From positions 32,001-96,000 of the IMG/VR virus record IMGVR_UViG_3300014205_000182: a stretch of DNA of 64,000 bases; one strand, 5' to 3'. Below the pieces are notes generated by a model. The model saw only the letters and a program-made list of their open reading frames with translations. It was not told where the DNA came from and searched no databases. Both the position numbers and the translations under genes were made by a program. Positions 1 through 59,015 of this stretch are shown piece by piece; within the stretch, counting starts at the first letter, position 1; each line of letters starts with the position of its first letter. The stretch comes from a virus. Lineage: Duplodnaviria > Caudoviricetes.

Positions 1-1372
1 CACCGAAGCGAAGCTTAGCGACGGTGTCCGTGTCGAGCACGCCGTGCTTGATGTAGATTGCATCTACGCGTGCCTGCGCGAGACGAGCGTTCGCCTTCTG
101 CTCGTCGGTCAGCTGCCAGAGTGGATGCCACTTAACGCCCCACTTCTTCGGGATCTTGCGCTGGCGTAGGCCACGCATGATCATCTCAGCAAACAACCGA
201 ATGATAGGCCCGATTTCATCTCTCTGTAGAGACGACAACTTATCGTAGTAATAGCGAAGATCGTCTCCCATTTCGGAAGCATCGCTCTTGGCACCGCCGC
301 CCATCAACACACTTAGAGGAGTGTCAATAGTTGCAGCGAAGCGACGAGACAGTTGGTTTAGAAGGTCCGGAAGACCGGCAACGTTCACCGACTGACGTTC
401 AAACTTCTCGTTATTGTCAATCAGGATTGCGCGGGCGACAGACCGTCCGAGGTTCATCGCACGCATCTTCGCGTTGAGCTTGTCTTCCTCGCGCATCACG
501 AGGTGGTTCAGCCCCTCGATGGAGAAGACGGCCTGTGAGAAGTCAGTGACGATTAGACCGGCTGCCGACCACGCGATGTTGAAGTCACGAAGGATTTCAT
601 AGATCTGTGTGTAGATCGAGAGACCCCAGTACGCTCCACAGTCATTGTGGGTTTGTGAGTACTTAGAGATCGAACCGTCGTTGAAGATAACCAGACGCGA
701 TTCGTGGATTAGTACGTCTTTAGCTTGTGGCTTTGTGGCAGCAGTTTTTACCGAGTGGCCCTGTAGGAAACCGTTTGTGTAGCGCTGAAGCTGCCAGAGC
801 TTTACTTCACCAAACTTAGGCTCTAGCTCGTTCTCGTAGAACGTGTGCGGGGTTAGATCCATTGGCTCCAGGTTTGTGAGGAACTCAATGTTGCTGACCT
901 TACTACGGTCGAGCGGGCGATCCATTGTCTTGTTGTCTCGGACGCCAATTAGAATCGCGGCTCCTCCGAGTGCTCGCTTCTGAGCCATCGCCTTCTTGAT
1001 GACCTTGTCGACCTCTAACTCACGAAGACGGTTCTCAATCTCTTCCTTGAGATCCTCAAACTGCCCCTCGTCGGCGATGCTGATTTCGTACCCCTGACGG
1101 AAGGCGTCTTCAACCGGGCCACGGGCTGCTCGCTTGCCTAGATCATCACTTTCGTAAATCTCTGTACACTGCGTGTAACTTAGGTGAATAGGCGTGAAGT
1201 CGTGCGTGACACGCTTGTCGTGTAACGCCTGGCCGATTCCGGTGATTGCGGAACCCCAGCCGTCTAGCCTACTATCCTGCCGTGTGTTCGACTTAGGCCG
1301 ACCGCGCTTATTCCCGCTAACCCCCTTAGGAAAAGTACCCTTGGGTGTGCGAGGAGGTTCCTGATTGCTCAT
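1..1372 (-). CDS. Phage portal protein, DUF1073-like (3' end runs off the window)
   Basis: Missing from the ORF track. Manual translation from ATG 1372: MSNQEPPRTPKGTFPKGVSGNKRGRPK...DGWGSAITGIGQALHDKR...IYESDDLGKRAARGPVEDAFRQGY. The DGW..TG.G..DK start and later IHESRLVIF segment are typical of DUF1073 portals. Confidence 0.8.
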   Translation of the reverse strand, partial: MSNQEPPRTPKGTFPKGVSGNKRGRPKSNTRQDSRLDGWGSAITGIGQALHDKRVTHDFTPIHLSYTQCTEIYESDDLGKRAARGPVEDAFRQGYEISIADEGQFEDLKEEIENRLRELEVDKVIKKAMAQKRALGGAAILIGVRDNKTMDRPLDRSKVSNIEFLTNLEPMDLTPHTFYENELEPKFGEVKLWQLQRYTNGFLQGHSVKTAATKPQAKDVLIHESRLVIFNDGSISKYSQTHNDCGAYWGLSIYTQIYEILRDFNIAWSAAGLIVTDFSQAVFSIEGLNHLVMREEDKLNAKMRAMNLGRSVARAILIDNNEKFERQSVNVAGLPDLLNQLSRRFAATIDTPLSVLMGGGAKSDASEMGDDLRYYYDKLSSLQRDEIGPIIRLFAEMIMRGLRQRKIPKKWGVKWHPLWQLTDEQKANARLAQARVDAIYIKHGVLDTDTVAKLRFG

Positions 1373-1462
1373 GCACAGAGTGTGCCATGTAACCTGATCT
1401 TTGGCAGAACAGGGCCTGTTATCAGGGAGTCTCAGGGCGTCGGCCGTAGTTATCCAAGTACA

Positions 1463-9604: not shown

Positions 9605-10062
9605 AGACAATTGCTCTAGTGTTCGGCGAGATGGGTGCTGGTAAATCCTACCTAGCCCAGAAGTTCGCCAATGCCCACGATTTCACGTTCATCGAAGGTG
9701 ACGCTCTATTGCCTGTGGAGATGGCAGAGCGTGTTGCTCGATTCAAAGGTCCCGATGCTGAGATGTTGGAGGACCTGGTTTGGGCGCTGCGTATCAGCGG
9801 GGCTGCGCTAAGTCGTGCCTCTGCGCGTGGGATTGTAATCTCACAAGCACTCTATCGCGACTGTGATCGCAAGAAGATTATCGATTTCTGGAAGCGCTCC
9901 GGCTTCTTCGTCGACACGTATTGGGTACGCGCTCCGTTCTGGAAGAACCTTCGTCAGCTGTGGTCGCGTGAGCGAGGGCTGCGTTGGATCTGGTTCTGGT
10001 TAAAGAGTAAGCTTTTCTTTCAAAAGCCTACGCATTCACACGAGGTATGGGACAATGAGTAA
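9601..10062 (+). CDS. P-loop kinase (gluconate/shikimate kinase-like)
   Basis: Walker A GEMGAGKS followed by FIEGD. Confidence 0.75.
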   Translation: MKTIALVFGEMGAGKSYLAQKFANAHDFTFIEGDALLPVEMAERVARFKGPDAEMLEDLVWALRISGAALSRASARGIVISQALYRDCDRKKIIDFWKRSGFFVDTYWVRAPFWKNLRQLWSRERGLRWIWFWLKSKLFFQKPTHSHEVWDNE

Positions 10063-10408
10063 GCCACATCAAGATTCTATGGGTGTCGACATTCGCGTGG
10101 GTGACTTCCTGGTGTTTGCTGCACCGTCTGGTCGTTCGTCAGCAGAGCTACGTTTTGGGTTCGTCAAAGACCTTCGCTATGAGCGGAAGGACCCAAACGG
10201 TACGCCGAAGCTGGCTGCAATCGTCGCTGAGAAGGGGTATCTGCACGACCCAAAGGGCGGTTATGTGCGAGACCCTTCGGGCGGGCTAGTCCGTGACTGG
10301 GTGCTTTCTCGCACCGGCAGCCTGTGCTCGCTTTACACTCACTACACGCTGGTGGTTCCACCGGAGGTTGTTCCGGGTCGGATTCGTAAGATGATGGTGG
10401 AGGCATGA
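10055..10408 (+). CDS. Hypothetical SH3/KOW-like protein
   Basis: DSMGVDIRVGDFLVFA start common in phage beta-barrel proteins. Confidence 0.55.
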   Translation: MSKPHQDSMGVDIRVGDFLVFAAPSGRSSAELRFGFVKDLRYERKDPNGTPKLAAIVAEKGYLHDPKGGYVRDPSGGLVRDWVLSRTGSLCSLYTHYTLVVPPEVVPGRIRKMMVEA

Positions 10409-10740
10409 TGGGCCACTACGAATGTCGTAAGTGTGACCAGCGTTATGACAAGTGCAGTTGTACTAGGCCGGTTTATCGCCCAGCAGGTGAGGTCAGACTT
10501 TCGCCCGAGCAGATAGTCGATAAAATAATCGATATCCTAGAATCCGAGCCTGCTGAAGAAGCTGTCAAATTGATTAAAGCCAAGTTCAATTACGGTGAGT
10601 GGTACTAAGTAACTGAAATAACTTGTAAAAAATTTTTTGACTTCTACTATTTGAGGAAAATATTTTACATATATAGGGATTTTTATTGTCGTTGCGCCCA
10701 GCCGGGTGGGTCTTAACGTACCCAGGTGCCTTGAACGAGC

Positions 10741-10895
10741 TGGCACGCTTCTTGCACACGTGGCCTTGGCACGCTAGATGCTAGGGGTAAGGTGTTGGCA
10801 CGCAACATTTGAGCTCGCCATGTTGGCACACCCCTTGCCGCGCCCTACCCTTGGCACACTACATGCCCATGGTACTACTTGGCACGAGCATTGCC
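10741..10895 (+). promoter_or_regulatory. Tandem array of six sigma-54 (-24/-12) motifs
   Basis: TGGCAC-N5-(T/A)TGC starting at 10741, 10767, 10796 (degenerate -12), 10824, 10852 and 10880. Confidence 0.75.
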
Positions 10896-11189
10896 ATGGC
10901 CGACCATGGTGCCCGGACCACGAACGGGCGACGCATCGCGGATCGCTTTGTTCGTGTAGTACGCTTCACACAGGGGAACCCACTCCATACCATAGATGCG
11001 AGCGTACTCAGCACGGGCATTGTCATCGCACGCCATAGCAACATCAAGCATGACTGCCAGGGTAGACGGTGCGCTATCCGACTCCGGGCAGTCGCAGATC
11101 AGACCAAGGCAGGGACAGATAAAGAGCGATTCGTAAGCGCCTTCGGTGTTCATACGATGACTCTACAGGAAACAGGTTCCAGTGAAACG

Positions 11190-11216
11190 AAAAACGACCG
11201 AGAGATCTCGGTCGTT
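11190..11216 (-). terminator. Intrinsic terminator
   Basis: AACGACCGAG/CTCGGTCGTT hairpin plus T run, just after the stop of 11242-12603. Confidence 0.75.
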
Positions 11217-11241
11217 ACCCCGGACATAACCGATAGGCCGG

Positions 11242-12603
11242 TTAGGTAAGCTCCAGCATCATAGCGCGCTGAGAAGTGTTATCCAGAGCGGTCACCACGA
11301 GCGCATCGCACGCAGCGATCCGGGCGAGGAAGGCGGAAACGGTATCGGCACCGAGCAGGGTAGCCAGACCATTGCACTCCGACCGCATACGCTCGATACG
11401 CTCGATAAGAGACGCGCCAGCGATACGCTTGAGATCGCCAGACTTGGCTTCGCAATCCTTCTCAAGCCGCGCCAGATCGGCGGTAAACGATTCCGTGAGC
11501 GCGCTTCCGATCGACTCGGTATCCATGTGCGACCAAGCGTAGATCCCACGTCCCATGATCGGCCGGAGGGCAACCACGAGATCGAGCGCGCGAGCGGCAT
11601 TGAACGGCTGAACGTAGATCCCGAGATCCGTGTCACGAGCGCCGTAGTGGTTCACGAGACACGCCATCACACGAGTCTGGAGATCGTCGGATGCGATCAG
11701 GGTATCGCGCACCCGGCGGTTAAAGTCAGCGAGGACCATACGCGCACCCTCGTGATCCGGAGCGTCACACTCGATAACGCCATCGTGCGAGAGGGTGATC
11801 AACGCCTCTTTCGCTCCGAGCGAATCGCTCGCGAGATCGTTATCGAAAAACCCGATCTTCCACGCGCTAGCGTACTTGCCAGCGGTAGGAGCGTTGCGGG
11901 CGACAAAGCCGCCATGGTTGAGGATCTGCGTCGCCTTTCCGAGCAGGCCGACGAGACCGGGTGCGCGGCCAAAGGCCTTCTCAGGCAATCCCAGAGTAAC
12001 GCGCACACTCTCGACGGATGCCCATTCGATCAGTGACTGGCGAGACTTGCCGGAGATCGAGTCAATGACCGTGCGAACCTTGCCAAAGGCGACGATGGTT
12101 CCCACGCCGCTAGCCAGCGTCGGATCAACCACTCGACCATTGTAACCGGCCTGCGTTGCGCCAGCGATGCGAGCCATCGCGGTCGCGGTCGCGATAGCGT
12201 CGGCTGACTGGCTACGAGTCTGCGAACCACCGCGACGGGTGCGGGCGGCACGCGCCGCAACATTCGCGGCACCCTCGTTCGCAACGTTCGTGAGCGCACC
12301 CGTGAGGGTAGACGCGTCAACCGTGCGGGCGATCTGAACGGGTGCAACGGGTGCGACCGGTCCCGGGATCGAATTCATGGTGATCACCATGCGCCGCGTT
12401 TGGCCGGCCAGCTTGACCACGGCACGATCCGACGGAGCGAGAGCAGAGTACACGCTACCAATGGCGCGGAAATCGTTGGAAACGCGGTCACAATCGGCCA
12501 TGGTCTGACAAGCGTTGACGAGCGCCAGACACTCAGAGAGCAGCGACGGGCGAAAAAGGTTGCCGAGGTTAGCGAGGGACATTCCGAGGATCGTGAGGGA
12601 CAT
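11242..12603 (-). CDS. Hypothetical 453-aa protein (putative pre-early)
   Basis: Long ORF with AAAGGA RBS, an upstream TTGACG-17-TAGGAT promoter and a downstream terminator. Confidence 0.8.
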   Translation of the reverse strand: MSLTILGMSLANLGNLFRPSLLSECLALVNACQTMADCDRVSNDFRAIGSVYSALAPSDRAVVKLAGQTRRMVITMNSIPGPVAPVAPVQIARTVDASTLTGALTNVANEGAANVAARAARTRRGGSQTRSQSADAIATATAMARIAGATQAGYNGRVVDPTLASGVGTIVAFGKVRTVIDSISGKSRQSLIEWASVESVRVTLGLPEKAFGRAPGLVGLLGKATQILNHGGFVARNAPTAGKYASAWKIGFFDNDLASDSLGAKEALITLSHDGVIECDAPDHEGARMVLADFNRRVRDTLIASDDLQTRVMACLVNHYGARDTDLGIYVQPFNAARALDLVVALRPIMGRGIYAWSHMDTESIGSALTESFTADLARLEKDCEAKSGDLKRIAGASLIERIERMRSECNGLATLLGADTVSAFLARIAACDALVVTALDNTSQRAMMLELT

Positions 12604-13165
12604 TTTGATTTCCTTTGTTCCGGGTTTCGAGTGGCAAGACCATCCTAGGGATCCTTGTTTCCCACGTCAAGCGCCTAAGAAACTATTTCGTGAGGATCCC
12701 TAGTTCCCTTTTGAAAACCGTGCGGATCTCGTCGACAACATCACAGGCCGGATGATTCGTTTGGAGCCATGCCAGGAATGCGATCCCTAATGTCGCGAAA
12801 CACGCGACCACATACAACCACATGAGGCGAGGATCCGGGATTGTCGCAACCACGGTAGGGTTTTTCCCCGGGCGAACGATCGCGCCATGCCAGGGATCGA
12901 GCCATACGACCACGGCACCCGGACGAACGGTGATTCGGTATGGTGTGCGGGTTTTCAGGACATGTGCGATTTCGTCGCGAGTCAAGATCCTACAGGACAA
13001 ATGGCACTCCACATGCGAGGAGGAAATGGTTGCGTTCCTGGCTAGTACACAAGTCATCCGCTAGCGCATGTGCGACATGGTACACACCGAGCAGGTAGGT
13101 CGGATCCTGACTTGTGCGTCGCGCGCGGTCAATCGCTCGCGCGAGATCGATTTGCTTACGGTTGA

Positions 13166-13330
13166 TCACATGTCACCCGTGGCGTAGCGGATTGCGTGAT
13201 CGAGCCGCACATGTAGCATCGGCCGACTCTGGAATGGATCGCAGATCCGGATTGCCTCGTCGAGTGTGACATGTGCGCCAGCGTAGTTGTTGTTCGTGTA
13301 GACGATACAGAGGGGATTACGCTTTTTCAT
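13166..13330 (-). CDS. Small leaderless ORF (54 aa, MKKRNPLCIVY...)
   Basis: Below the ORF-track cutoff; ATG lies 6 nt after a TACACT -10 box. Confidence 0.5.
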   Translation of the reverse strand: MKKRNPLCIVYTNNNYAGAHVTLDEAIRICDPFQSRPMLHVRLDHAIRYATGDM

Positions 13331-13764
13331 GTCTCCAGTGTAGGCATGTTTTCACTTCACTGGAAACCCTTTTGGGTTATGTGTGGGGTAGCGAATGATT
13401 TCAACAGGTTACACTCGAGCTCGCGATTTCAGCGACTTAGCCTGGCGAGATTCTTGCATTGGTCCGACCGGCTATTTTCCTGCGAATTCGGCAGGATTCT
13501 ACAGTGCCAAACTGGCAAACCTGCGGATTTGGCAGTTCACACTTTACTGTGAACGCCCGTTCATAGTTCAGCGTTATTTGTGTATCGAACCATACCAAAC
13601 AGAGCAGTTTGGGTAGCGTCGGGAAAATATCAGGTACTTAGAGTGTAGGGAATCGCGATCGGACCTAGGGTGTCACCTAGTGACGGGATTATTTTCGTTC
13701 AATGGTGGGCATTCTGTAGCGTCTGAACGAAGGTCCGTTTTTTAGTAAGATGGCACACTAGGAA

Positions 13765-14155
13765 TTCCCTACAGGACACAAATGTCGTGTCGCAGGGTAT
13801 CGGAGCACCCGGGGGTGGGTCCAAACGGACACGGGTCTACCTGGACCCGGATCACCGTGTCATATGATCCGTATGCCATGGGTTCTTTACCCGGGTATAA
13901 AACTACCCACCCGGGTGACACGATACCCTGGTATTTCGATCATATGACATTTCGATCCGGGTCTAAATGGACTCGGGTCCACCGAGACCCGGGTCTAAAT
14001 GGACCCGGACATTCTTGTCCTAGGATCGTAATGCCAGAGTAGATCTTTACCCGGGTGTCTGGTTACCCTGGCATTTGTGTCATAGGATCTAAATGTCATG
14101 TAGGCAAACCGGCGACCTGTACGTGTAGCAGCTTCCGTGCCAAACCGGGTCTACA
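13765..14155. repeat. Non-coding field of dispersed ACCCGGGT / CGGGTCTA / TGTCATA(T/G)GATC motifs
   Basis: Multiple copies on both strands; CCGGGTCTAAATGGAC is duplicated near 13957 and 13989. Confidence 0.6.
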
Positions 14156-14195
14156 TTCAAGTATTGTGCCAAATTCGCGAGCTCAAAATCGGATA

Positions 14196-14340
14196 CTGAA
14201 CACTTGTTCAGTGTGACATCAGGATCATACTGAACGGATGTTCAGGTACTGAACGGATGTTTAGGTACTGAACGGATGTTCAGGTACTGAACGGATGTTC
14301 AGGTACTGAACGGATGTTCAGGTACTGAACGGATGTTCAG
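14196..14340. promoter_or_regulatory. Array of seven LexA-box-like palindromes (CTGAAC-N4-GTTCAG)
   Basis: One copy at 14196 and six in 19-bp tandem at 14230, 14249, 14268, 14287, 14306 and 14325; fits the Myxococcus SOS box consensus. Confidence 0.75.
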
Positions 14341-14346
14341 TGGACA

Positions 14347-14362
14347 TGCAAGCTGCGTGCCA
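14347..14362 (-). promoter_or_regulatory. Consensus sigma-54 site pointing into the LexA-box array
   Basis: TGGCACGCAGCTTGCA on the minus strand. Confidence 0.65.
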
Positions 14363-14574
14363 GCGAGCGAGGGCGCGACGGGGCCGAGCGCGGATTTTCG
14401 CCCGGGAATCGCACGAAATTACCCACTACGCACTGCGTCACGCCTAGTAATTCCAAGGGTTTGAGCTCGCTAATTTCGAGCATTAGCGCACGAATTTCCG
14501 CCTATGGCACTCCGGGCGCCCGACGGTGCGAAACGCTCGCAAATCGAAGCCTATCGCGTCTGAGAGCAAATGAG

Positions 14575-14604
14575 AAAACCCGCCGGGATTTCTCCGGGCG
14601 GGTT
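14575..14604 (-). terminator. Intrinsic terminator
   Basis: AACCCGCC/GGCGGGTT stem with TTTT, downstream of 14626-14865. Confidence 0.65.
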
Positions 14605-15106
14605 AGGTCGCGCTAAGTAGCTGATTTAGTACCAGTAGACTCGCACCGAGTCATCCTCGAAAACCTCGTCGGAGATCGGTTCAGCGACGGAGATGTAACG
14701 AGTGTAACAACGCTTTCCATCGCGCACATGAGCCCAGATCTCCTCACACATGGCCATGTGTCCCGAGGTGGGAGCATTCTCGCGAATCCACACGAGACCG
14801 GCAGCGCACACGAGGGATAGCAGAGTGATTTCGAGGTTGTTGGTTTCCATTCCTCTTTGTCGCACGGAATACCCTACGGGGTCAATACCTTTTGTGCGCG
14901 ATCGTATGCCTCTGAATTGCTCTGCTCAAACTCGGCTTTGGTCGCGCCCATATTCCAGGGCAGTGCCCAACGGTTACGTGCGTTGAGTACCGGCGTACCG
15001 TCTTCGTCGCCACAAACCGCAACGATCGTTGCGACCGTAACCCAAGCGGTTGGAGTAGGGCAGGAATGCGATAGGAGCAGACTGATCGCCCACTGGCCTA
15101 GGATGT

Positions 15107-15352
15107 TCACGCTAGACTCTCGTACAGATCAAAGAGTTGGTCGAGTGACATCCGCTTGAGACGCTTACGCGAAACCTTCGAGGTTTCCCCTGTGAGGTAT
15201 GCGAAAGCATCCTGATCGCTCGTCTCGACGAGGATCGAGTCGATCAGCGCACGCTTGCGCGCCATGCGATCAGACTTGTCAACGGGCAGAACCATCGGGG
15301 AAAACTGCGTAGCCTCGTAAGACTCGCAACGGTTACCGGTACACTTGCTCAT
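15107..15352 (-). CDS. Hypothetical protein
   Basis: AGGAG RBS; coupled to 14874-15110. Confidence 0.55.
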   Translation of the reverse strand: MSKCTGNRCESYEATQFSPMVLPVDKSDRMARKRALIDSILVETSDQDAFAYLTGETSKVSRKRLKRMSLDQLFDLYESLA

Positions 15353-15519
15353 ATGCTCCTATGACGCGTTGAGGGTTTGGGTTCTGACAGGTCCAGGTTA
15401 CGAATAATCGGCGTTACATCCGGGCGCCCACGAGTTGTCGCACGTCCGGACTCTGGCGTCTACAAAAATCGCAGAAAGATCGCCAGAAACGAGCTCGCCA
15501 GCCTAACCCCTCGAGATTA

Positions 15520-16338
15520 CTAGGGAATTACTGCCAGAGCCGCAACGCGCTTTGCTTTGCTCTGGGATCGCATTCCATGCTCTACGAGGTAGACGCTTGC
15601 ACGACTGCTCTTACCCTGCACTCCGTTACAGATTCCGCAACGGTCGCACGTAAGCGGGTTCTGCTCTCTGGTAGCAGGACACTGGACCATGCCAGCGGGG
15701 ATCTCAGTACCCTCGGGCACTGCCAGGAATTTACGCCAGCCGAGCATGTCGGCGGTAGCAACATCCCGAGTGGAATCACAGCTTGCCATGATGTTATCGC
15801 GAAACCAGAATGCCGATTCCATGTGGCGTGCGCTCATACCGTCGACGAGATCGGTAATCGGTCCGCACGGAATCGAGCGCCACTGGTGCGTGTACCCGAC
15901 GACACTACGAGGCATGAGAGCAGAGATCAGATCCTGCCAAACCTCGAAGGGAACCGCCATCGGATCCCCGTAGCTACCGAGCCGCAGGCCATGGTCGCGC
16001 GCGTCCTGCGTCATACGGAGGATTTGCGTAGGGTCCGCCCAATTACTGCCAGGGAATCCCGATCGCTCCCACGCAAGCCAAACGCTACGTGGTGCGTGTA
16101 CGATTTGCACGTAGCAATCCCCTCCCAAGGCATGGCGACGAGGACACAGGCCGCACACCGATTCATCGGCTTTCGTAGCTGAAGCTTCAGAGGGATGCAT
16201 ATCGGCACGCATGATCCAAGTCTGAACCATGCTACCCGTCTTGACGTTCGAAGATCCGACGCTTGCCAGGCAAACGATCGGCGAACCATCGATCATGCTC
16301 GGGCCATGGTAGATCACGATGGGAGTGGTCACAAACAT
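15520..16338 (-). CDS. Cys-rich conserved phage protein, radical-SAM-like
   Basis: NVKTGSMVQ, VCGLCP..CYV, LRLGSYGDP, GYTHQW, CPA..TCDRCGIC. Start moved to ATG 16338 after AGGAG. Confidence 0.7.
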   Translation of the reverse strand: MFVTTPIVIYHGPSMIDGSPIVCLASVGSSNVKTGSMVQTWIMRADMHPSEASATKADESVCGLCPRRHALGGDCYVQIVHAPRSVWLAWERSGFPGSNWADPTQILRMTQDARDHGLRLGSYGDPMAVPFEVWQDLISALMPRSVVGYTHQWRSIPCGPITDLVDGMSARHMESAFWFRDNIMASCDSTRDVATADMLGWRKFLAVPEGTEIPAGMVQCPATREQNPLTCDRCGICNGVQGKSSRASVYLVEHGMRSQSKAKRVAALAVIP

Positions 16339-16699
16339 GCTCCTAGGCAAGAATCTCCGACGATCATTGCGAGAAAAACCGCGACCGACGCGATGGCACG
16401 CGTCCATTTCTGATCCACTAGTTCACTCCAAGATCTTCGACAGGAGGAACCCAGGAATCCGCGTAACCCTCGCGCGTTTCCGGTCCGTTGATCGGTGCAG
16501 CTTGCACGTAGGGGACCGGCTGATCATTCTCGTCGAGAACGGTAACACGAGCAGCAATCGAATTGCTCGCGTTAACCATACCAGCGTCGAGAAGATCCAA
16601 CGCGAATTGCATGAGGATCAGACACCGAGGACAATCACAGTATTTGAGGGACATGGGATCACCTTAGAGACGTGGTGAGATGTTGTCAATGGGCGAAAT

Positions 16700-17169
16700 T
16701 CAGCGAGGAGCGATCACTCGGTGGTTCCACCATGGCGGAAGCTGACGATCTGCCAAACGCAGATGCATCGCGTTGCAAGCGGCAAGCGGTACACCATGCG
16801 TGTTTCGCTTCGCACCGATCGCTGGGTCACAATCTAGCGTCACGATCTCCAATTCGTGACCGTACGCCAAAGCCAGAGCGGCATACGGCGCGATTTCTGC
16901 CACGGTCGTGTTCGTGTTATCGACCACAACATCCGGAATCCAGGTACCGGATTTCCAGTCTGCCGTGATATGTCCCACGAAATCCCGGAGGCATTTTGCG
17001 TGCGCCTTTGACAGTAACATCGCGTTGAAAATTGGCGTAGCTTGCATCTTATCATCGGTGTACAAACCGGGATACTTATCGGCCGAACAAACCAGAGCAT
17101 CCGGTGGTTCTTGCGCGTGTATGTCGACTTACCAGATCCGGGAATGCCGCAAAGAATTGTGATCTTCAT
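16700..17169 (-). pseudogene. AAA_33/polynucleotide-kinase-like gene split by a frameshift near 17103
   Basis: Walker A GIPGSGKST is in one frame; VCSAD..VVVDNTN..RNTHGVP is in another. One C appears to be missing in CACC(C)GGAT. Confidence 0.75.
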
Positions 17170-17611
17170 GTGCAGACCACACTACGCATTGCGGGGATCG
17201 CTGTCAAACGAAAAATCGCCTCCATGGCGAGCTCGAGCGCAACCTGCTGTAATCACTAGCGAATTACGATTGTGTCTTGACAGATCCCTGCGTCGTTTCC
17301 AGAGTGGATCGCACAATGGAAACGCAAAAAATGCTCGTCGAGATCACGATTCCGGCCGACATGTCAGACGGTGAATTGCTGGAGAAAATCCAGGAGCTTG
17401 CGCAGGAATGTGCAGAGGCTTTTTGGGAGGGAGACGAGGATTTCCCATCGACACTGGCAAGTGAAATTTCCGACTCGTGTACGGTAGTTTCTGAGGACAA
17501 CTGGGAGATCGTCTCGCGCGAGTAACTGATCCTTCGTTCAGTGGCTACTCGACCTTCCAGTGACGTGACAAGTAGTCACATACCCTGCCAGTGAAAACCA
17601 AAAGTTAGCTC

Positions 17612-18041
17612 TGGCATAACGACTGCACAAAGAATCCTCATGACCAATCCCGCCGATAAGAAGCGCGACCACGAAAACACTGCCCTCGCCTGGCTCGCTG
17701 TTTGGCGTACGTGCGACGAAAGCACGATCGGTGCCAAGCAACTTGCTCTGGCTCTGGCAGATCTTCACATGGACGCTGCCGACGAGTGTGCTATTGACGC
17801 ATACTGTCAGGAAGTCAGCGCACGCTAGAAAAACTCGAAATCCTCCGCGCCCGTGCCAAGCGTGCGCAACGTAGCATGGATCGTGCCACGCTCGCCCTGC
17901 AGCGGCACTACGTGAAGTCTGGCATGGATATTGCCAGAGCGGGCGGCGCTCGACGACTTGGCCTAGCAAGCCCCGTGCCAACCGGAAATAAGGAGGTCCT
18001 TATTCAAAATCCGGGCCAAAAGTTGTGGCACGATTTTTGCA
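17612..18041. promoter_or_regulatory. Second cluster of sigma-54 motifs, mixed orientation
   Basis: 17612(+), 17873-17888(-), 17920(+, also readable on -), 17965-17980(-) and 18026(+ TGGCACGATTTTTGCA). Confidence 0.7.
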
Positions 18042-18324
18042 CCGGCGTGCGGGTCGCGCGGGCGCCCGGCCGGCGCGGCGGTCGACCAAAGCCCGGCACC
18101 TGTTATTTAGGGAGGTCACGTCTGTATATATAGCGCTAGCGCTTATTTACTATATAGGGGCGCCAATTTCCTTATATATAGCGCTGGGTTGTCAATAAAT
18201 GCGCAAGTTGTGCATTAATAGGGTTTGTGTCAGGTTTAGTGTTAGATTTGAGACCCCACCAGGGGGTTTTAGGTGTGGTTTGGATTTCGCCTCAAAATCA
18301 ACACAAATTCCTCCTCTGCCCAGA

Positions 18325-18740
18325 GTGACCTCGGTTAGAAAAGTGACCTTGGTTGGAAAAGTGACCTTGGTTGGAAAAGTGACTCGCGCTAGAAATCTAA
18401 CAGTGACTCACGTTAGAAATCCAGCAGTGACTCGTGTTAGAAATCTCCCATGATTGCTCGCAATCGCGCAAGTGATTCATCGCAGCGTTTCTGCCAGGCG
18501 GTGAACCAGGTTAGAAAATCTTGGTCGGTCTGGATTCTGGTGATGGAAACCACTTCAATAGTTGTTGTAGTTCGCATGAGTGACTTTCGTTAGAAGTTTC
18601 AGGTGCTTTCAAACTTCATTGAAACTTTTAAAAGGTTTGAATGCTATGTAACAAAACGTTACTATTGCTGGGAAAATTGGATCAAATCAAGTACTTAGAC
18701 CTGCTCCAAAATGGAGCAGTTCGTGACCTCGGTTAGAAAT
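18325..18740 (+). repeat. Iteron-like direct repeats GTGAC-N4-GTTAGAAA
   Basis: Copies at 18325, 18343, 18361, 18379, 18403 and 18427, with outliers at 18501, 18580 and 18723 around an AT-rich tract. Confidence 0.8.
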
Positions 18741-19576
18741 TAGTCATCAGCGCTCGTATATCGTTTGGGCTCCCACTTCCTGCTAGAAGAGTTGTACTCC
18801 CAACCAAGATAGGTCATGTCGTTACGTAACACCTGCTGGATTTTCGTAGAACTGATGAACTTACCGTGATACGCAACTACTACATCCTGAAACTTCACCT
18901 GATAAATACCTGCTTTGATGTAGTCGGATAGAACTTTCGCAGTACGTTCTCGACGTAACTTAATCAAGTGAGGGGTGATGGATTTTATTGGAGTATTTCG
19001 TTCTGATGGTGTTTGGTAGTGCTTGTACGGTCTGCCTGTTAAGGTGTGTTTCTTCAACGGGTTCCAGCGCCAGACAGAGTGAATTGTCTTAGATTTTCCT
19101 GAGTCAGACTTCCTGTATTCCAGCATGGGGTACCAGTGAAGGCTATTTAGTAAAATCTCAGGTTCCATGTCCATGTACTGCTTTGGCCATGTACCTGCCC
19201 AGGCTTTCATCGTGAAGGCCGGATTAGCTTGTAGCCACGCTCTACGGTCGTGACCAGGGTTAGGGTCATGGTCGATTAGCACTGGAGTACCCTCCCAGTC
19301 GCTCCTAGTGACCGTGGTTCGATTTTTAGGGTCTGCCGCGTCGTAGTCCGCCACCCACTTCCAAATCTGCTCAGGCGTCAGCTTATCGACGCCCCAGGTC
19401 CACGCGTGCTCCGAAAGCTTGGCCAGGTCGTTGACCATCTCAGCCGTAGGATTATTAGACGACATTGCCAATTCTAAGGTACCTGTCGAGACACCTAGCG
19501 CTCTGGCTATGACAGGCACTGTCAGTTTGCCTTGACAGAAATGTTTGAGTAAGTGGAGTCCGAATGATTCAGTCAT
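18740..19576 (-). CDS. HTH-containing DNA-binding protein, candidate origin or repeat binder
   Basis: N-terminal XRE-like LTVPVIARALGVSTGTL; wing-like C-terminus; ends directly at the repeat array. Confidence 0.6.
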   Translation of the reverse strand: MTESFGLHLLKHFCQGKLTVPVIARALGVSTGTLELAMSSNNPTAEMVNDLAKLSEHAWTWGVDKLTPEQIWKWVADYDAADPKNRTTVTRSDWEGTPVLIDHDPNPGHDRRAWLQANPAFTMKAWAGTWPKQYMDMEPEILLNSLHWYPMLEYRKSDSGKSKTIHSVWRWNPLKKHTLTGRPYKHYQTPSERNTPIKSITPHLIKLRRERTAKVLSDYIKAGIYQVKFQDVVVAYHGKFISSTKIQQVLRNDMTYLGWEYNSSSRKWEPKRYTSADD

Positions 19577-55390: not shown

Positions 55391-57970
55391 CTAGTTGCTA
55401 TCGCGCAAGCCTGAGGTTGAACTTTCTGCAATCTCTGGTGAAGTGCCTTCCGGAAGACGCCACATCGGCTGCCCCTCGTCACCGAGTGTTGGCAGCAGGC
55501 CCGCCTCTTTGATAGCAGCAGAGATGCCCTTCTGGCGACCAGGAAGCTTCTCAATCTCGATGTCTAGCGCGGACTTAGCAATCTCGGCCAGCGTCCACTG
55601 ACGGCGCACGTTGACACCCACAGAATTACGACGCGACCACTCGCGAATGAGCCCAGCCCAGGTGTTCTCTGGACGACGCTTCTCGACGACAAGCGCTGCC
55701 ATATCCTGCTCGGTCTCCGTCTCAAACCACCAGCGTTCACCAGGGCACTCAGGGTGCGCCAGAGAAGGGTTCAAGTCAGCGTGAAGATAACGGTAAGCGG
55801 CCTCTGCCCACAGCTGATCGCGGTCAGCACGAAGTCGAATCGTGTCACATTCGCCCACAGCTACTGGCCAGTAACGACGGTTACCGGTTTCGTCTGGCAA
55901 GTACTCACCCTGGTTGGTCGAACCGATAAACACTGCGTATCGCTTGAATTCCTCTGGAGCCTTGCCGTAGGGCGGGCGGTAGTTGTCGACGCGGGCCGAG
56001 ATGAACGCCTTCTGGCTTTCCGTCTCAGAAGCACGTAGCGAAGCAAGCTCAGCAAGCTCGATGATCCAGCGGTAGCTGGCCATCTGCATGGAGTCCTTGT
56101 TACCAATTACGAGAGGAGAGTCAGAGAACCAAGAGCCGGCAAGTACGCTGGCAGCTTTGGACTTTCCAACACCCTGGCGACCTTCTAGAATCAGAACAGT
56201 GTCGACCTTGCTTCCGGGTACGAGTCCACGAGCACACGCCGAGATCATCCACATCGCCCCGACGCGACGGTTGAAATCTGTGTCTTCGGCGCCACAGTAA
56301 TCGATGAGCCAGGTGTCAATGCGTGGCTTACGATCCCACTTAACCGCACGCAAGTACTCAGCAACGGGGTTGTACTCGTTGCGTCGAGCGATCAGTAGAA
56401 GCTGATCTTCGATTTGCGTCCTGTTGGCAGTCACCTGCCACTTGCGGTCCATCCAGTTCATGACGTCGGTTGCCAGGACGTTGCTCGAAACGTCCTTGAA
56501 AAGCTCTGCTGTAATCTCTACTTGCTTCGTTAGCCCGTTGAATCGAATGCTGTTTCCCACTACGGAATCTCCGTTCAGAATCTGGTAAAGGTTGTTGGGG
56601 CAATTCTTGACCCCTTCACCTTCACTGTCAAGCTTTAACGTAGCCATGAGGTCGTAATCAGCCTCGGGTAGATCGGCAGGACCGCCACCAGGTGCGCTTG
56701 CAGGAGCAGGTGTAACAGGAAGGGAGTCGGCCAGGCTAGCAAACTGAGAAGCTCCGGCAATACTCTTGGGCCGAGCTTGGCGAAGCAATTCACGTGCCCG
56801 GTCTTCGGGCATGTTGGTGCCCATCAGAAGGGTGGCAAACTGATCGTCGGTCGTACCGGTAGGACAGTTACGAATCAGTGCTTGTGTAGCTAGTAGTTCG
56901 TTATCACCTAGATATTTCTTATCCAGAATCTGCGAGATTAGTTCTTTGTCGACTCCCTTGGCAGGATCCGACGTTCGCTTTGCTTTGATAGCCTTCAGGG
57001 TTTCTGTAACGAGAATGTCTGGTGGCTTCGTGTACGCCGGTAGAACAGGAGCGTCACTAAGCCCAAGAGCATCTAGACGCTGTTCCTCGCCTCGATACGC
57101 GGCACCCCAAACCGGCATGTTGGCACGCTGGTACGCCGACCAGACATGACGACCCATACGTGCGCCCCACGGAGGGACGCACTTCTTATCAAACTCCATT
57201 GCAGCTTCAAGCGCAGCTTCCGAGTCACGCACACCATAAGAACGAATGGCCGAACGCACAATGTTGAACGTCGTACCTGCCGTCGATGTACCCTTGACTT
57301 CACCAGGCTCACGAGCAAAGTGTGCCTTCATGTCTGCGATGCGTTGCTCGTTTGGAATCTTGGCGAGCCACTCCGGTTCCTCCTTCGGAATACCGACGTC
57401 ACCGACTTCGCTGGTCTTTCGCAGCGCTTCTTTCCAGGAATCTGGAAGCTCCGCAACAGCGATCTCCGTCGGACCAAGACCCTCCTGCCATGCGTAGTTA
57501 CCACCACTTGCATGGTTTGACGGCGCAACAATAATGTACGCCTTCGAACGGATAACAATTCCGCCGAGAACACCACGCACCGGGCCTCCGGGAGACTGCA
57601 CGATCGCGTGGAAGCCTTCACCAGAGCCAGAGCGCTGTGTAACCGTCGAAGGAAGCGGCCCGAGTGTTTGCTCAAGTGCTGCTAACTTAGCTAGATCTTT
57701 GTTGTACTCGTCAAGGTCAAACCCCAGGAGCCCGGAAGGCTCCATGACGACGGCGATCGATGCATCTGGCATCGCAGTCCACCAGGCACGAATTTGCGCT
57801 TCGTCTGTGGTAGCATCCGTCAGCCCGTTATTGGAACACGGGTGCTTACCAGGAGATACACATTGTGGTCTACCGCACGCACAGATCCCATCACGCATCG
57901 GGTAGCACGGGATCACGTACCAACCGATTTTACTGTAGGCTAAGGCAAAATCTAGCATCGTCGCCGACAT
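55391..57970 (-). CDS. Prim-Pol primase/polymerase fused to VapE/VirE-like helicase
   Basis: GWYVIPC..CACG..C..PGKHP..ATTD..WW, FDLD; C-terminal LEGRQGVGKS, ELAEL, YRPPYG, GSTN, DETGNRRYW. Confidence 0.92.
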   Translation of the reverse strand: MSATMLDFALAYSKIGWYVIPCYPMRDGICACGRPQCVSPGKHPCSNNGLTDATTDEAQIRAWWTAMPDASIAVVMEPSGLLGFDLDEYNKDLAKLAALEQTLGPLPSTVTQRSGSGEGFHAIVQSPGGPVRGVLGGIVIRSKAYIIVAPSNHASGGNYAWQEGLGPTEIAVAELPDSWKEALRKTSEVGDVGIPKEEPEWLAKIPNEQRIADMKAHFAREPGEVKGTSTAGTTFNIVRSAIRSYGVRDSEAALEAAMEFDKKCVPPWGARMGRHVWSAYQRANMPVWGAAYRGEEQRLDALGLSDAPVLPAYTKPPDILVTETLKAIKAKRTSDPAKGVDKELISQILDKKYLGDNELLATQALIRNCPTGTTDDQFATLLMGTNMPEDRARELLRQARPKSIAGASQFASLADSLPVTPAPASAPGGGPADLPEADYDLMATLKLDSEGEGVKNCPNNLYQILNGDSVVGNSIRFNGLTKQVEITAELFKDVSSNVLATDVMNWMDRKWQVTANRTQIEDQLLLIARRNEYNPVAEYLRAVKWDRKPRIDTWLIDYCGAEDTDFNRRVGAMWMISACARGLVPGSKVDTVLILEGRQGVGKSKAASVLAGSWFSDSPLVIGNKDSMQMASYRWIIELAELASLRASETESQKAFISARVDNYRPPYGKAPEEFKRYAVFIGSTNQGEYLPDETGNRRYWPVAVGECDTIRLRADRDQLWAEAAYRYLHADLNPSLAHPECPGERWWFETETEQDMAALVVEKRRPENTWAGLIREWSRRNSVGVNVRRQWTLAEIAKSALDIEIEKLPGRQKGISAAIKEAGLLPTLGDEGQPMWRLPEGTSPEIAESSTSGLRDSN

Positions 57971-58051
57971 AATAGCTTACCTGCCCGCAGTCTGCGGGAT
58001 AACGACCGTCATCCCAAGTAAACTACGCGAGGTACTCGCGAAACTCCGGCG

Positions 58052-58654
58052 TTACTTGGTACGAGCCATCAGAACAGCACGTCGAACCCACTCGATTGGA
58101 GCAACGAACGTCAGGTTGTCCATGTCACCGAAACGCTTGATAAGTACGCCAACAGACTCACCACGGGTGTTCATGATCGGAGAACCACTTGCGCCGAAGC
58201 CGACAACAGAAGAACAGATGCCTTCGTTATCTTCATCTCGACCTGCCCAGTAACCATCAGAGATCAGGAACTTGCCACGAGGATACCCGGCTGTCCAGAT
58301 ACGCTCACCGATTTTTGGATCATAAAGTGCAATCTTGATAGCGTTACCACGAAGCTCGCCACGAAGCACGCACACATCATGAATGTCGTCATCCACAAGA
58401 ACGGTAAAGGTTGCGCCGGCAACAGCATGCGGTCCCGATGCTGAATAGATCTCATTCATTTCGCAGCAGTGGCCAGCAGTTACTGCCAACCCGTCCGTTG
58501 TCTTCCAGACAGTGCAAGACCCGGCATCTTCTGCCAGAGCTTGTAGCTTAGCAACCGCAGGGTCAGACATAGTCGGTGCTTGACCAGGGTGCTGAGCACT
58601 GCCACAAGCAGAGCAGGCAGTGAGAAGGGCGATGACAACGGCGAGAAAATGCAT
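58052..58654 (-). CDS. Trypsin-like serine protease, probably exported or lipid-anchored
   Basis: TAGHC, D (HDVCVL), GYP and GASGSP triad motifs; N-terminal signal LLTAC. Confidence 0.85.
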   Translation of the reverse strand: MHFLAVVIALLTACSACGSAQHPGQAPTMSDPAVAKLQALAEDAGSCTVWKTTDGLAVTAGHCCEMNEIYSASGPHAVAGATFTVLVDDDIHDVCVLRGELRGNAIKIALYDPKIGERIWTAGYPRGKFLISDGYWAGRDEDNEGICSSVVGFGASGSPIMNTRGESVGVLIKRFGDMDNLTFVAPIEWVRRAVLMARTK

Positions 58655-59015
58655 GGGAAGCTCCTATTGAGGTAACTTCATAAGCTTAGCTTATGACTCC
58701 CATTTAGTCTTCGGAGTTTCTGGAGGACTTTGGGTGGTTTACTTCGTATGGATAACCCTGAAACCTTCGTAGCCACCCAAGATCACCCGGTTTACTGGTG
58801 TACCCGAGACGAGGTTGCTGGGGTATTGTCGGATATTGTTGATATTTGGACAAGTCCACCAGAAAGAGTGCCCAGAGCAGATGGCGGCTGTGACTGGCTC
58901 GGCGAAGGTGTCGCACGCCTGACCTCGCGTTATGCTCAGTGGTCGCTTGCATTGTGCTTGAAGAACTGCGGAACCACACCCGACGACTCCAGGCAGTGCA
59001 TCAAGGTCGGCTAAC

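What the first reader, a model, noticed from the sequence alone, without database searches (positions are those of the whole stretch)
10620..18200. Candidate new system: a bounded phage segment loaded with arrays of host-regulator binding sites
Seen: about 7.5 kb with sparse genes, its own terminators, about 15 sigma-54 motifs in three clusters (both ends and the middle), seven LexA-type boxes and further unassigned repeated motifs. I noticed almost none of these motifs in the other 56 kb. The ends are roughly mirror-organised: AT-rich TATATAGGG tract (10670 and 18151), then a GC-rich tract, then a sigma-54 cluster. Known: T5 and SPO1 keep host-takeover genes in long terminal repeats, and T5's first-injected DNA has a repeat-rich stop region. 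Inference: this is a first-entering or terminally repeated region in which the DNA itself acts as a multi-factor sponge, sensor or protein-coated handle for host regulators.
Basis: partly seen in the sequence, partly recalled or inferred. Interest (0 to 1): 0.9.

Follow-up and report, generated by a model that had tools for sequence, protein, structure and literature searches.

The report
Sigma-54 and SOS-box arrays in phage
A 7.5-kb stretch of a large uncultivated phage really is packed with docking sites for the host's sigma-54 RNA polymerase, plus a row of seven SOS-repressor (LexA-type) boxes; it looks like the phage's host-dependent control region beside a probable replication origin, not a terminal repeat.

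Summary
In window 10620-18200 I count 10 sigma-54 -24/-12 sites of at least 15 bits, against 0.05 expected. Seven Myxococcus-type LexA boxes lie at 14196-14340 and nowhere else. All six genomic copies of GAGCTCGC fall in this stretch.

Two corrections. The genome holds 15 further strong sigma-54 sites. The segment is about 67% coding.

Relatives (L186-L191) keep the gene order across both borders, so it is not a chimera. Six of seven keep strong sigma-54 sites convergent on the 3' end of the p453 operon (one to eight sites).

The strongest central sigma-54 promoter (14362, minus strand) has its predicted start inside LexA box 1. The right border holds conserved iterons, an AT-rich tract and a gene for a weakly HTH-like protein, probably an origin.

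Tandem sigma-54 arrays recur in viral contigs: 49 carry three perfect sites in a row, against 10 stretches in 596 Gb of prokaryotic genomes. This scan noted such arrays before on other phage DNA.

Best reading: a host-factor-dependent, cis-acting control hub. A sponge role is not excluded. Terminal-repeat status found no support and could not be tested with reads.

The parts
10637..10700 (+). AT-rich element at the left border, with sigma-70-like hexamers (TTGACT-16/18-TATTTT) and TATATAGGG at 10670. The core AAAATATTTTAC...ATTTATT is conserved in relative L186.
10741..10895 (+). Sigma-54 bank A. Five strong -24/-12 elements at 10741, 10767, 10824, 10852 and 10880, plus a degenerate one near 10797. 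They are head to tail at a 26-30 bp period and the linkers differ. The bank points into the 3' ends of the minus-strand genes p92 and p453 (convergent).
   Evidence: convergent counterparts in L186-L190
10875..11153 (-). p92, a small Cys-rich ORF. It has a homolog after the p453 homolog in L187.
11193..11216 (-). Intrinsic terminator after p453: a 10-bp stem followed by a T run.
11242..12603 (-). p453, a conserved protein with no Pfam or PHROG family and no informative fold match. It anchors the synteny with the relatives.
12642..12703 (-). Sigma-70-like promoter TTGACG-17-TAGGAT for p453, bracketed by the inverted repeat CTAGGGATCC / GGATCCCTAG.
12683..13330 (-). Small ORFs p124, p59 and p54. 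p124 and p59 are conserved in L186 and L187, and p59 also in L188.
13780..14110 (.). Complex of direct and inverted repeats (CCGGGTCTAAATGGAC, TTTACCCGGGT, TGTCATATGATC). The binding factor is unknown.
14127..14171 (-). Sigma-54 sites P3 (14142, 16.2 bits) and P2 (14171, 12.4 bits), 29 bp apart. P3 has an ortholog at L186:130.
14196..14340 (.). Seven LexA-type palindromes CTGAAC-N4-GTTCAG. Six lie at a 19-bp period and match the M. xanthus SOS box at 16 of 17 positions on the minus strand.
14347..14362 (-). Sigma-54 promoter P1, a consensus site of 18.9 bits. Its predicted +1, near 14336, falls inside LexA box 1.
   Evidence: start site inferred from the usual -12 to +1 distance
14575..14605 (-). 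Terminator-like hairpin after the three small ORFs, read by eye. The scan tool did not list it.
14626..17169 (-). Leftward small-gene operons: p79, p78, p81, p295 (PHROG 2554, unknown function), p78b and a P-loop protein. They have a sigma-70-like promoter (TTGACA at about 17207) just upstream.
17216..17230 (-). Terminator-like hairpin. It would end leftward transcripts from the cluster C sites before they reach the operon.
17612..18041 (.). Sigma-54 cluster C: 17612+, 17736-, 17888-, 17920+, 17980-, 18026+. It contains two back-to-back divergent pairs.
18110..18320 (.). AT-rich tract with ATATATAGCGCT palindromes and TATATAGGG at 18151.
18324..18745 (.). Iteron array of about nine copies of AGTGACCTCGGTTAGAAA at 18- and 24-bp periods. 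The motif TTTCYAACC-N4-TCACT recurs next to the p278 homolog in L187.
18740..19576 (-). p278, with weak helix-turn-helix signals. It is a candidate iteron-binding or initiator protein and is conserved in L187.
10811..17236 (.). Six copies of GAGCTCGC at 10811+, 13417+, 14179-, 14463+, 15491+ and 17229-. These are the only GAGCTC sites in a genome that otherwise avoids this palindrome. Two of them lie 4 nt upstream of a TTGGCAC element.

Best explanation
The segment is the host-factor-dependent control hub of a large lytic phage. The host is probably a member of Myxococcota, judged from the LexA box type.

Contents:
- small-gene operons of early-gene style, reading leftward;
- promoters and operators that unmodified host proteins can read;
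- a probable replication origin on the right (iterons, an AT-rich tract and a weakly HTH-like gene).

Proposed mechanism (inferred):
- The sigma-54 elements act in cis as docking sites for host sigma-54 RNA polymerase.
- Single and paired sites act as enhancer-dependent promoters.
- The 26-30 bp tandem bank at the left border faces the 3' end of the p453 operon. It acts either as a bank of antisense promoters or as a stack of stable closed complexes that insulates two converging transcription units.
- The strongest central sigma-54 promoter (14362, minus strand) is overlaid by seven SOS operators. Its output is then gated by cleavage of host LexA, for example once infection creates RecA-activating DNA.

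Shown here: the sites, their excess over chance, their geometry and their conservation.
Inferred: binding by sigma-54 and LexA, the start sites, the timing, and the identity of the activator.
For: 1. The motif matches the extended sigma-54 consensus TGGCACG-N4-TTGC(A/T), with invariant GG and GC. It is far above chance in the genome (25 sites against 0.95) and in the segment (10 against 0.05).
2. The phage has no sigma-54, activator (EBP) or LexA gene. It does have two sigma-70-family sigma genes. Host-type sites are therefore what one expects where host machinery must act unaided.
3. Six of seven related contigs carry sigma-54 sites of at least 14 bits on the opposite strand, 320-670 bp beyond the p453 stop. 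A seventh has only a weak site (12.4 bits). Copy number runs from one to eight and the sequences have diverged. Position and direction are thus kept while the sequence turns over.
4. L187 has a sigma-54 site about 95 nt upstream of its p453 homolog and a tandem pair upstream of the next operon. Some G000 sites sit 25-150 nt upstream of co-oriented genes.
5. The predicted start of the 14362 promoter lies inside LexA box 1, the classic repressing position. The boxes match the M. xanthus SOS box at 16 of 17 positions.
6. In other viral contigs, arrays are mostly followed by co-oriented ORFs (24 against 9, binomial p = 0.014). They are usually the only sigma-54 sites in the genome.
7. Precedent: development of Pseudomonas phage YuA depends on host sigma-54, and a sigma-54-like start site was mapped (PMC5053324; bioRxiv 10.1101/2023.10.13.562163).
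8. Iterons and an AT-rich tract lie next to p278 in both G000 and L187.
Against: - There are no transcript or binding data of any kind.
- No activator gene and no recognisable enhancer sites were found.
- In this genome, sigma-54 sites of at least 14 bits are as often antisense as sense to the next gene (16 against 11).
- Bank A and half of cluster C have no co-oriented gene to drive.
- One conserved site overlaps the start codon of the ORF at window 2-1372 (minus strand). Its counterpart in L186 sits at the start of the portal gene. Such a site cannot be that gene's promoter.
- The host is unknown.
- The closest relative, L186, has boxes with a divergent half-site (CTGAACATCCGAGCAG). That weakens the LexA assignment.
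- The box array also lies 45-220 bp upstream of P2 and P3, where enhancer sites would sit.
Confidence: 0.5

Rival explanations
1. Trans-acting decoy. The banks of sigma-54 sites and the LexA box array work mainly by titrating scarce host sigma-54 holoenzyme and LexA as the phage DNA replicates. This would shut down sigma-54-dependent host programmes and derepress SOS genes.
For: - The sites are near-consensus, multiple and tightly packed at about 2.5 helical turns, with a period mode of 26 bp.
- G000 shows no sense bias.
- Bank A has no gene to drive.
- The phage has no activator gene.
- Arrays are far commoner in viral contigs than in cellular genomes (49 against 10 with three perfect sites).
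- Sigma-54 holoenzyme is known to sit on promoters in a silent closed complex (PMC4591121, abstract).
Against: - Position and direction of the bank relative to p453 are kept in six of seven relatives, while copy number ranges from one to eight. A decoy needs dose, not place.
- The LexA array is placed exactly on a promoter start.
- Arrays in other phages show promoter-like orientation.
Confidence: 0.2
2. The segment is a collapsed long terminal repeat or the first-injected DNA, as in T5 or SPO1, and the repeat arrays mark an injection-stop or end region.
For: - It holds small ORFs of unknown function and repeat-rich borders, with a roughly mirrored layout and inward-facing sigma-54 sites.
- The contig of relative L186 starts inside the box array.
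I did not verify it.
Against: - The 143.7-kb contig holds no second copy and has no terminal repeat.
- L187 spans both borders without a break.
- A contig end inside a tandem repeat is the usual assembly artefact.
- No T5-like pre-early genes were recognised among the segment's ORFs.
- A probable origin lies at the right border.
- Vibrio T5-like phage pVp-1 has only three dispersed sites.
Confidence: 0.07
3. The TGGCAC-N5-TTGC elements, the palindromes, or both are read by phage-encoded proteins rather than by host sigma-54 and LexA. Candidates are one of the two phage sigma factors, p278, or an unknown repressor or enhancer-binding protein. The resemblance to host motifs would then be coincidental.
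For: - The phage encodes two sigma-70-family sigma factors and many unknown small proteins.
- The segment also carries private motifs with no known reader: GAGCTCGC, the iterons and the 13780-14110 complex.
- The L186 boxes deviate from the palindrome.
- Some tandem TGGCAC arrays occur in Actinobacteria, which by my own knowledge lack rpoN.
Against: - The same extended sigma-54 consensus with fixed spacing recurs in unrelated viral contigs of 34-65% GC. That fits a universal host factor, not a private protein.
- Promoters of sigma-70-family factors have a 16-18 nt spacer, not 4-5 nt (established knowledge).
- A 16 of 17 match to a consensus of about 25 bits is unlikely by chance.
Confidence: 0.1

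Closest known systems
Host sigma-54-dependent promoters of Pseudomonas aeruginosa phage YuA (Ceyssens et al. 2008, as cited in PMC5053324 and bioRxiv 10.1101/2023.10.13.562163)
   Same: A virulent phage without its own RNA polymerase uses the host's sigma-54 promoter type. Dependence on host sigma-54 is reported, and a sigma-54-like start site was mapped.
   Different: The papers I could read describe single sigma-54 promoters, not 26-30 bp tandem banks. There are no convergent banks and no LexA overlay. The original YuA paper was not available to me.
Bacterial sigma-54 (-24/-12) promoters such as glnAp2, pspA and nifH (from my own knowledge)
   Same: Same TGGCAC-N5-TTGC core with invariant GG and GC and the same spacing. 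Closed complexes wait for an AAA+ activator.
   Different: Cellular promoters are single sites with upstream enhancer sites. Here there are up to 6-8 head-to-tail copies, no recognisable enhancer, and many sites antisense to genes.
Intragenic and antisense sigma-54 binding sites of E. coli (Bonocora et al. 2015, PMC4591121)
   Same: Sigma-54 holoenzyme sits on DNA in a silent state at places that do not look like mRNA promoters.
   Different: Those are isolated chromosomal sites, not arrays, and are not concentrated in one control region.
LexA-controlled phage promoters such as CTXphi rstA, coliphage 186 tum and GIL01 (from my own knowledge)
   Same: A host SOS box is placed over a phage promoter, so that DNA damage signalling controls phage genes.
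   Different: Those have one or two boxes on sigma-70 promoters of temperate phages. Here seven boxes in tandem lie over and downstream of a sigma-54 promoter in a large phage in which I saw no lysogeny genes (not searched for systematically).
Long terminal repeat and first-step-transfer DNA of T5, with its repeat-rich injection-stop region
   Same: A block of small genes of host-takeover style with repeat-rich, protein-binding-site-rich borders.
   Different: No terminal duplication was detected. The phage is not T5-like in the genes examined, and an origin-like module lies at the border.
Iteron-type replication origins, as in lambda ori or plasmid and P1 origins (from general knowledge)
   Same: Direct repeats of 18-24 bp lie next to an AT-rich tract and a gene for a DNA-binding protein. 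The arrangement is conserved in a relative.
   Different: The adjacent protein has no recognised initiator family, and no replication data exist.

Membership tests
Sigma-54 (-24/-12) promoter | GG and GC dinucleotides exactly 10 bp apart, within TGGCAC-N5-TTGC | tested here: met
   All 25 genomic sites of at least 15 bits have GG and GC. The consensus is TGGCACG-N4-TTGC(A/T).
Sigma-54 (-24/-12) promoter | More sites than chance would give | tested here: met
   25 against 0.95 in the genome and 10 against 0.05 in the segment, from 100 Markov simulations.
Sigma-54 (-24/-12) promoter | Placed upstream of, and co-oriented with, the gene it drives | tested here: inconclusive
   11 sense against 16 antisense in G000. 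Bank A is convergent. Arrays in other phages are mostly co-oriented (24 against 9).
Sigma-54 (-24/-12) promoter | Dependence on an AAA+ enhancer-binding protein with upstream binding sites | not testable with these tools
   The phage has no PF00158 gene. Host activators and their sites are unknown.
Sigma-54 (-24/-12) promoter | Transcription start about 12 nt downstream of the GC element | not testable with these tools
LexA (SOS) operator, Myxococcus type | Match to CTRHAMRYBYGTTCAGS | tested here: met
   Seven boxes with at most one mismatch, at 14196-14340 only. The consensus comes from PMC9705874.
LexA (SOS) operator, Myxococcus type | Overlaps a promoter or start site, so that binding represses | tested here: met
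   Box 1 spans about -4 to +12 of the predicted start of the 14362 minus-strand promoter. The start position is inferred.
LexA (SOS) operator, Myxococcus type | Bound by host LexA, with the host being a myxobacterium | not testable with these tools
   The host is unknown. The L186 variant boxes (CTGCTCGGATGTTCAG on the other strand) resemble the weakly bound or unbound pafBC and recN boxes.
Long terminal repeat or first-entering DNA (T5/SPO1 type) | The same sequence present at both genome ends | tested here: not met
   The contig has no end repeat. No second copy of bank A or of the LexA-type box array turned up in genome-wide motif scans. A collapsed repeat cannot be excluded without reads.
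Long terminal repeat or first-entering DNA (T5/SPO1 type) | Doubled read coverage and fixed read starts at the borders | not testable with these tools
   Sequencing runs could not be reached.
Iteron-type replication origin | At least four direct repeats beside an AT-rich tract | tested here: met
   About nine iterons at 18324-18745 and an AT-rich tract at 18110-18320.
Iteron-type replication origin | Adjacent gene for the iteron-binding initiator | tested here: inconclusive
   p278 gives only weak helix-turn-helix signals. The pairing of gene and iterons is conserved in L187.

The most novel reading that the evidence does not exclude
Phage DNA acts as a dosage-driven decoy. As the genome replicates, the sigma-54 banks and the seven-box LexA array soak up the host's scarce sigma-54 holoenzyme and LexA. 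This would silence sigma-54-dependent host programmes and switch on SOS without DNA damage. The same trick would be used by the many uncultivated phages that carry tandem sigma-54 arrays.
Probability: 0.15. Interest if true: 0.9.

Novelty: new variant of a known kind. Interest (0 to 1): 0.62.

Why it matters
Phage use of the host's enhancer-dependent sigma-54 polymerase is documented for very few phages. I found no paper describing tandem banks of sigma-54 sites.

Such banks are conserved in this lineage and recur in dozens of unrelated viral contigs, while being rare in cellular genomes. That points to a widespread and unstudied way for phages to engage host transcription.

Two features are new and testable:
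- a sigma-54 promoter overlaid with seven SOS boxes;
- a bank that faces the end of an operon.

They could show how a lytic phage senses host state, how antisense or roadblock control works with closed complexes, or whether DNA decoys for sigma factors exist in nature. The segment also gives a candidate origin and a private cis-element (GAGCTCGC) for a poorly known group of large phages, probably myxobacterial.

Tried and rejected
- Rfam at gathering thresholds and a tRNA scan of the window found nothing.
- Megablast of 10000-19000 against GenBank phages gave no match.
- Myxococcus phage Mx1 (OR576727) is similar in size and GC, but it has no perfect sigma-54 site and no TGAAC-N4-GTTCA palindrome, and the two segment proteins searched (p453, p295) did not list it.
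- The IMG/VR contig G001 was found through the ligase. It shares only 12 proteins with this genome, but it has its own cluster of 10 sigma-54 sites at 56.5-59.1 kb.
- p453 and its alignment found no relative in IMG/VR.
- The p453 structure model (pLDDT 71.6) gave no informative match in Foldseek PDB or VIA-align wide. Only generic helical bundles matched.
- The p278 atlas search gave only weak HTH leads.
- RNA folds of the putative transcripts 18050-18275 and 10905-11240 gave z-scores of -2.2 and -3.3. That is not enough to claim structured RNAs.
- The sigma-70 and terminator consensus scan was near background.
- A k-mer search for a phage-specific promoter found a TGCTTAGGT-type motif upstream of about 12 genes, none in the segment. 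I did not develop it further.
- The genes downstream of arrays in other contigs do not form one family.
- Vibrio T5-like phage pVp-1 has three dispersed sites and no banks.
- The YuA paper PMC2238194 is not held.
- Literature searches for tandem sigma-54 arrays in phages found nothing.

Full report
**Setting.** The window is bases 32001-96000 of a single 143,724-bp IMG/VR viral contig. The contig is linear with no end repeat, is rated 90% complete by CheckV, and has 54.5% GC. The phage encodes rIIA/rIIB-like proteins, a large terminase, a primase-helicase and an ATP-dependent ligase. It has two sigma-70-family sigma factors. It has no sigma-54, no sigma-54 activator and no LexA. It is not Myxococcus phage Mx1.

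**Check of the observation: sigma-54 sites.** A sigma-54 weight matrix finds 25 sites of at least 15 bits in the genome, against 0.95 in simulated sequence. It finds 10 in 10620-18200, against 0.05. The matrix frequencies come from memory, so it is heuristic. An exact pattern search agrees with it.

The segment's density is about 12 times that of the rest of the genome, which is itself about 16 times chance. The sites form three clusters:
- Bank A: 10741-10895, five strong sites and one degenerate, all plus strand, 26-30 bp period, linkers different.
- Cluster B: 14142, 14171 and 14362, all minus strand.
- Cluster C: 17612+, 17736-, 17888-, 17920+, 17980-, 18026+.

**Check of the observation: LexA-type boxes and other repeats.** Seven CTGAAC-N4-GTTCAG palindromes lie at 14196-14340, six of them at a 19-bp period. 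They match the published M. xanthus SOS box CTRHAMRYBYGTTCAGS at 16 of 17 positions. The rest of the genome is at chance level for this motif.

Further repeats are real: a palindromic complex at 13780-14110 and about nine iterons at 18324-18745.

A new point concerns GAGCTC. This palindrome is purged from the genome (6 seen, 41 expected). All six copies lie in the segment's non-coding stretches, each as GAGCTCGC. Two of them sit exactly 4 nt upstream of a TTGGCAC element.

Sigma-54 sites are not confined to the segment. The segment is about two thirds coding. TATATAGGG occurs only at the two borders, but two copies prove little.

**Relatives.** The largest gene of the segment, p453 (11242-12603, minus strand), has nine homologs at 47-59% identity. 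Their contigs L186, L187 and L188, plus the short contigs L189-L191, are syntenic. The shared order is:
- p278;
- iterons and an AT-rich tract;
- sigma-54 sites;
- small genes;
- p295, p59, p124, p453 and p92;
- sigma-54 sites;
- an AT-rich element;
- the ligase block.

L187 spans both borders of the finding in 7.6 kb, so the segment is not an assembly chimera.

In six of seven relatives, sigma-54 sites of at least 14 bits lie on the opposite strand, 320-670 bp beyond the p453 stop. The counts are eight sites at 26-29 bp in L187, two to four in L186, two or three in L188, three or more in L189 and one in L190. L191 has only a weak site (12.4 bits). The chance of one such site in such an interval is roughly 0.002. 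The convergent placement is therefore conserved while copy number and sequence turn over.

L187 also has a sigma-54 site about 95 nt upstream of its p453 homolog, and a tandem pair upstream of the next operon.

The iteron motif TTTCYAACC-N4-TCACT and an AT-rich run follow the p278 homolog in L187. This supports a conserved origin-like module at the right border.

The L186 contig begins inside an array of related boxes (CTGAACATCCGAGCAG, twice), just upstream of the ortholog of the 14142 site. This is most simply an assembly break in a repeat.

**Geometry in the centre.** Read on the minus strand, the consensus promoter at 14362 has its GC element 11-12 nt before the first box. The predicted start therefore falls inside box 1 (about -4 to +12). 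Five more boxes follow at 19-bp steps and a seventh lies at about +128. Two further sigma-54 sites (14171, 14142) come after them.

The array could therefore repress P1 in an SOS-sensitive way. Seen from P2 and P3, however, it lies where enhancer sites would be, so a host activator is an alternative reader.

Leftward transcripts from the cluster C sites would meet a terminator-like hairpin at 17216-17230. That hairpin lies before the next operon, which has its own sigma-70-like promoter. Several sigma-54 sites in this segment thus face genes on the other strand rather than driving genes.

Genome-wide, sites of at least 14 bits are 11 sense and 16 antisense to the next gene.

**The wider picture.**
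- Pairs of perfect sigma-54 elements 8-20 bp apart occur in at least 120 IMG/VR contigs. I estimate a chance expectation of about 6, assuming roughly 60 Gb for IMG/VR, whose size the tools do not give.
- Three perfect sites in a row occur in 49 viral contigs, against 10 stretches in 596 Gb of prokaryotic genomes. Some of those 10 are in phyla that, by my own knowledge, lack rpoN, and are plain repeats.
- Arrays of 5-11 sites have a period mode of 26 bp, about 2.5 helical turns. In many of them only the motif positions are conserved, at GC contents of 34-65%.
- They are usually the only sigma-54 sites in their genome.
- They are more often followed by co-oriented ORFs than by opposed ones (24 against 9, p = 0.014). 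The downstream genes belong to no single family.
- A distinct 182-kb phage, G001, also has ten sites in a gene-poor 2.5 kb.
- Earlier notes of this scan report the same kind of array in other phage windows and point to phage YuA as the nearest published case. I confirmed from two papers that YuA depends on host sigma-54. I found no paper on tandem arrays.

**Interpretation.** The most economical reading is a host-factor-dependent control hub. The phage brings its own sigma factors for later genes. Sites for host sigma-54, host sigma-70 and a host repressor are therefore expected where host machinery must act unaided. The small unknown ORFs fit an early or host-takeover class, and the iteron module fits an origin.

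Within this hub:
- the single and paired sigma-54 sites are probably enhancer-dependent promoters;
- the convergent bank is either an antisense promoter battery or a stack of closed complexes insulating two converging units;
- the box array makes one promoter sensitive to LexA.

I give this reading 0.5.

**Rivals.**
- A trans-acting decoy (0.2) is not excluded, and it is favoured by the lack of sense bias and of any activator gene. The conserved placement at variable dose argues against it as the main role.
- A terminal repeat or first-injected DNA (0.07) has no support here and could not be tested with reads.
- Phage-encoded readers of the motifs (0.1) are unlikely for the sigma-54 elements, because the same consensus recurs across unrelated phages. 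They remain possible for the palindromes and are likely for GAGCTCGC and the iterons.

**Verdict.** Novelty: a new variant of a known kind (host sigma-54-dependent phage transcription and LexA-controlled phage promoters), already noted by this scan on other DNA. This window adds three things: the conserved convergent bank, the LexA overlay and the segment-private motif.

Noticed in passing
window 10811, 13417, 14179, 14463, 15491, 17229: GAGCTC is strongly avoided in the genome (6 seen, 41 expected). All six copies lie in the segment's control regions as GAGCTCGC, and two of them sit 4 nt upstream of a TTGGCAC element. Other 6-bp palindromes are also purged (CCGCGG 0, GTGCAC 0, CTGCAG 1, GGGCCC 2, CTCGAG 3), which suggests restriction avoidance.
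   Followed up: partly
window 18324-18745 and L187:630-1100: A conserved iteron array (TTTCYAACC-N4-TCACT on one strand) and an AT-rich tract lie just beyond the 3' end of the p278 gene in both phages. This is a likely replication origin.
   Followed up: partly
genome 15746-16141 and 118856-119371 (outside or at the edge of the window): Two sigma-70-family (ECF-like) sigma factor genes, with open frames of 161 and 240 aa.
   Followed up: no
window 1372-1387 (minus strand) and L186:12024-12039: A sigma-54-type site overlaps the start codon of the ORF at window 2-1372 (minus strand). Its counterpart in L186 sits at the start of the portal gene. A site in that position cannot be a promoter for the gene.
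   Followed up: no
genome 139078-139111 (window 107078-107111): Two 17.7-bit sigma-54 sites lie face to face, 33 bp apart. Each one's predicted start falls inside the other site.
   Followed up: no
G001 (IMGVR_UViG_3300047160_018755) 56557-59055: An unrelated 182-kb phage of 63% GC has ten sigma-54 sites in a gene-poor 2.5 kb, together with many copies of TGACGCA / TGCGTCA that could be activator sites.
   Followed up: partly
L143:12400-12640 and L144:5680-5900: Two IMG/VR contigs of 62% GC carry arrays of CCCTGAAC-N4-GTTCAG boxes at a period of about 22 bp, with no sigma-54 sites nearby.
   Followed up: no
L186:620-800 and L186:3440-3610: The closest relative has other tandem arrays in the equivalent control regions. 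One is a 36-bp unit, five copies, containing GGATCC palindromes. The other is a CCTAGGC / CCTCAGGC microsatellite beside the convergent sigma-54 pair.
   Followed up: no
upstream of genes starting near window 22737, 23085, 23925, 24429, 29509, 32686, 34515, 43517, 48689: A shared TGCTTAGGT-type motif lies upstream of about 12 genes, none in the segment. It may mark another promoter class.
   Followed up: no
L187:6541-6730: The eight-site bank in this relative is made of nearly identical 27-bp units. This points to recent expansion by slippage, unlike the diverged linkers in G000.
   Followed up: partly
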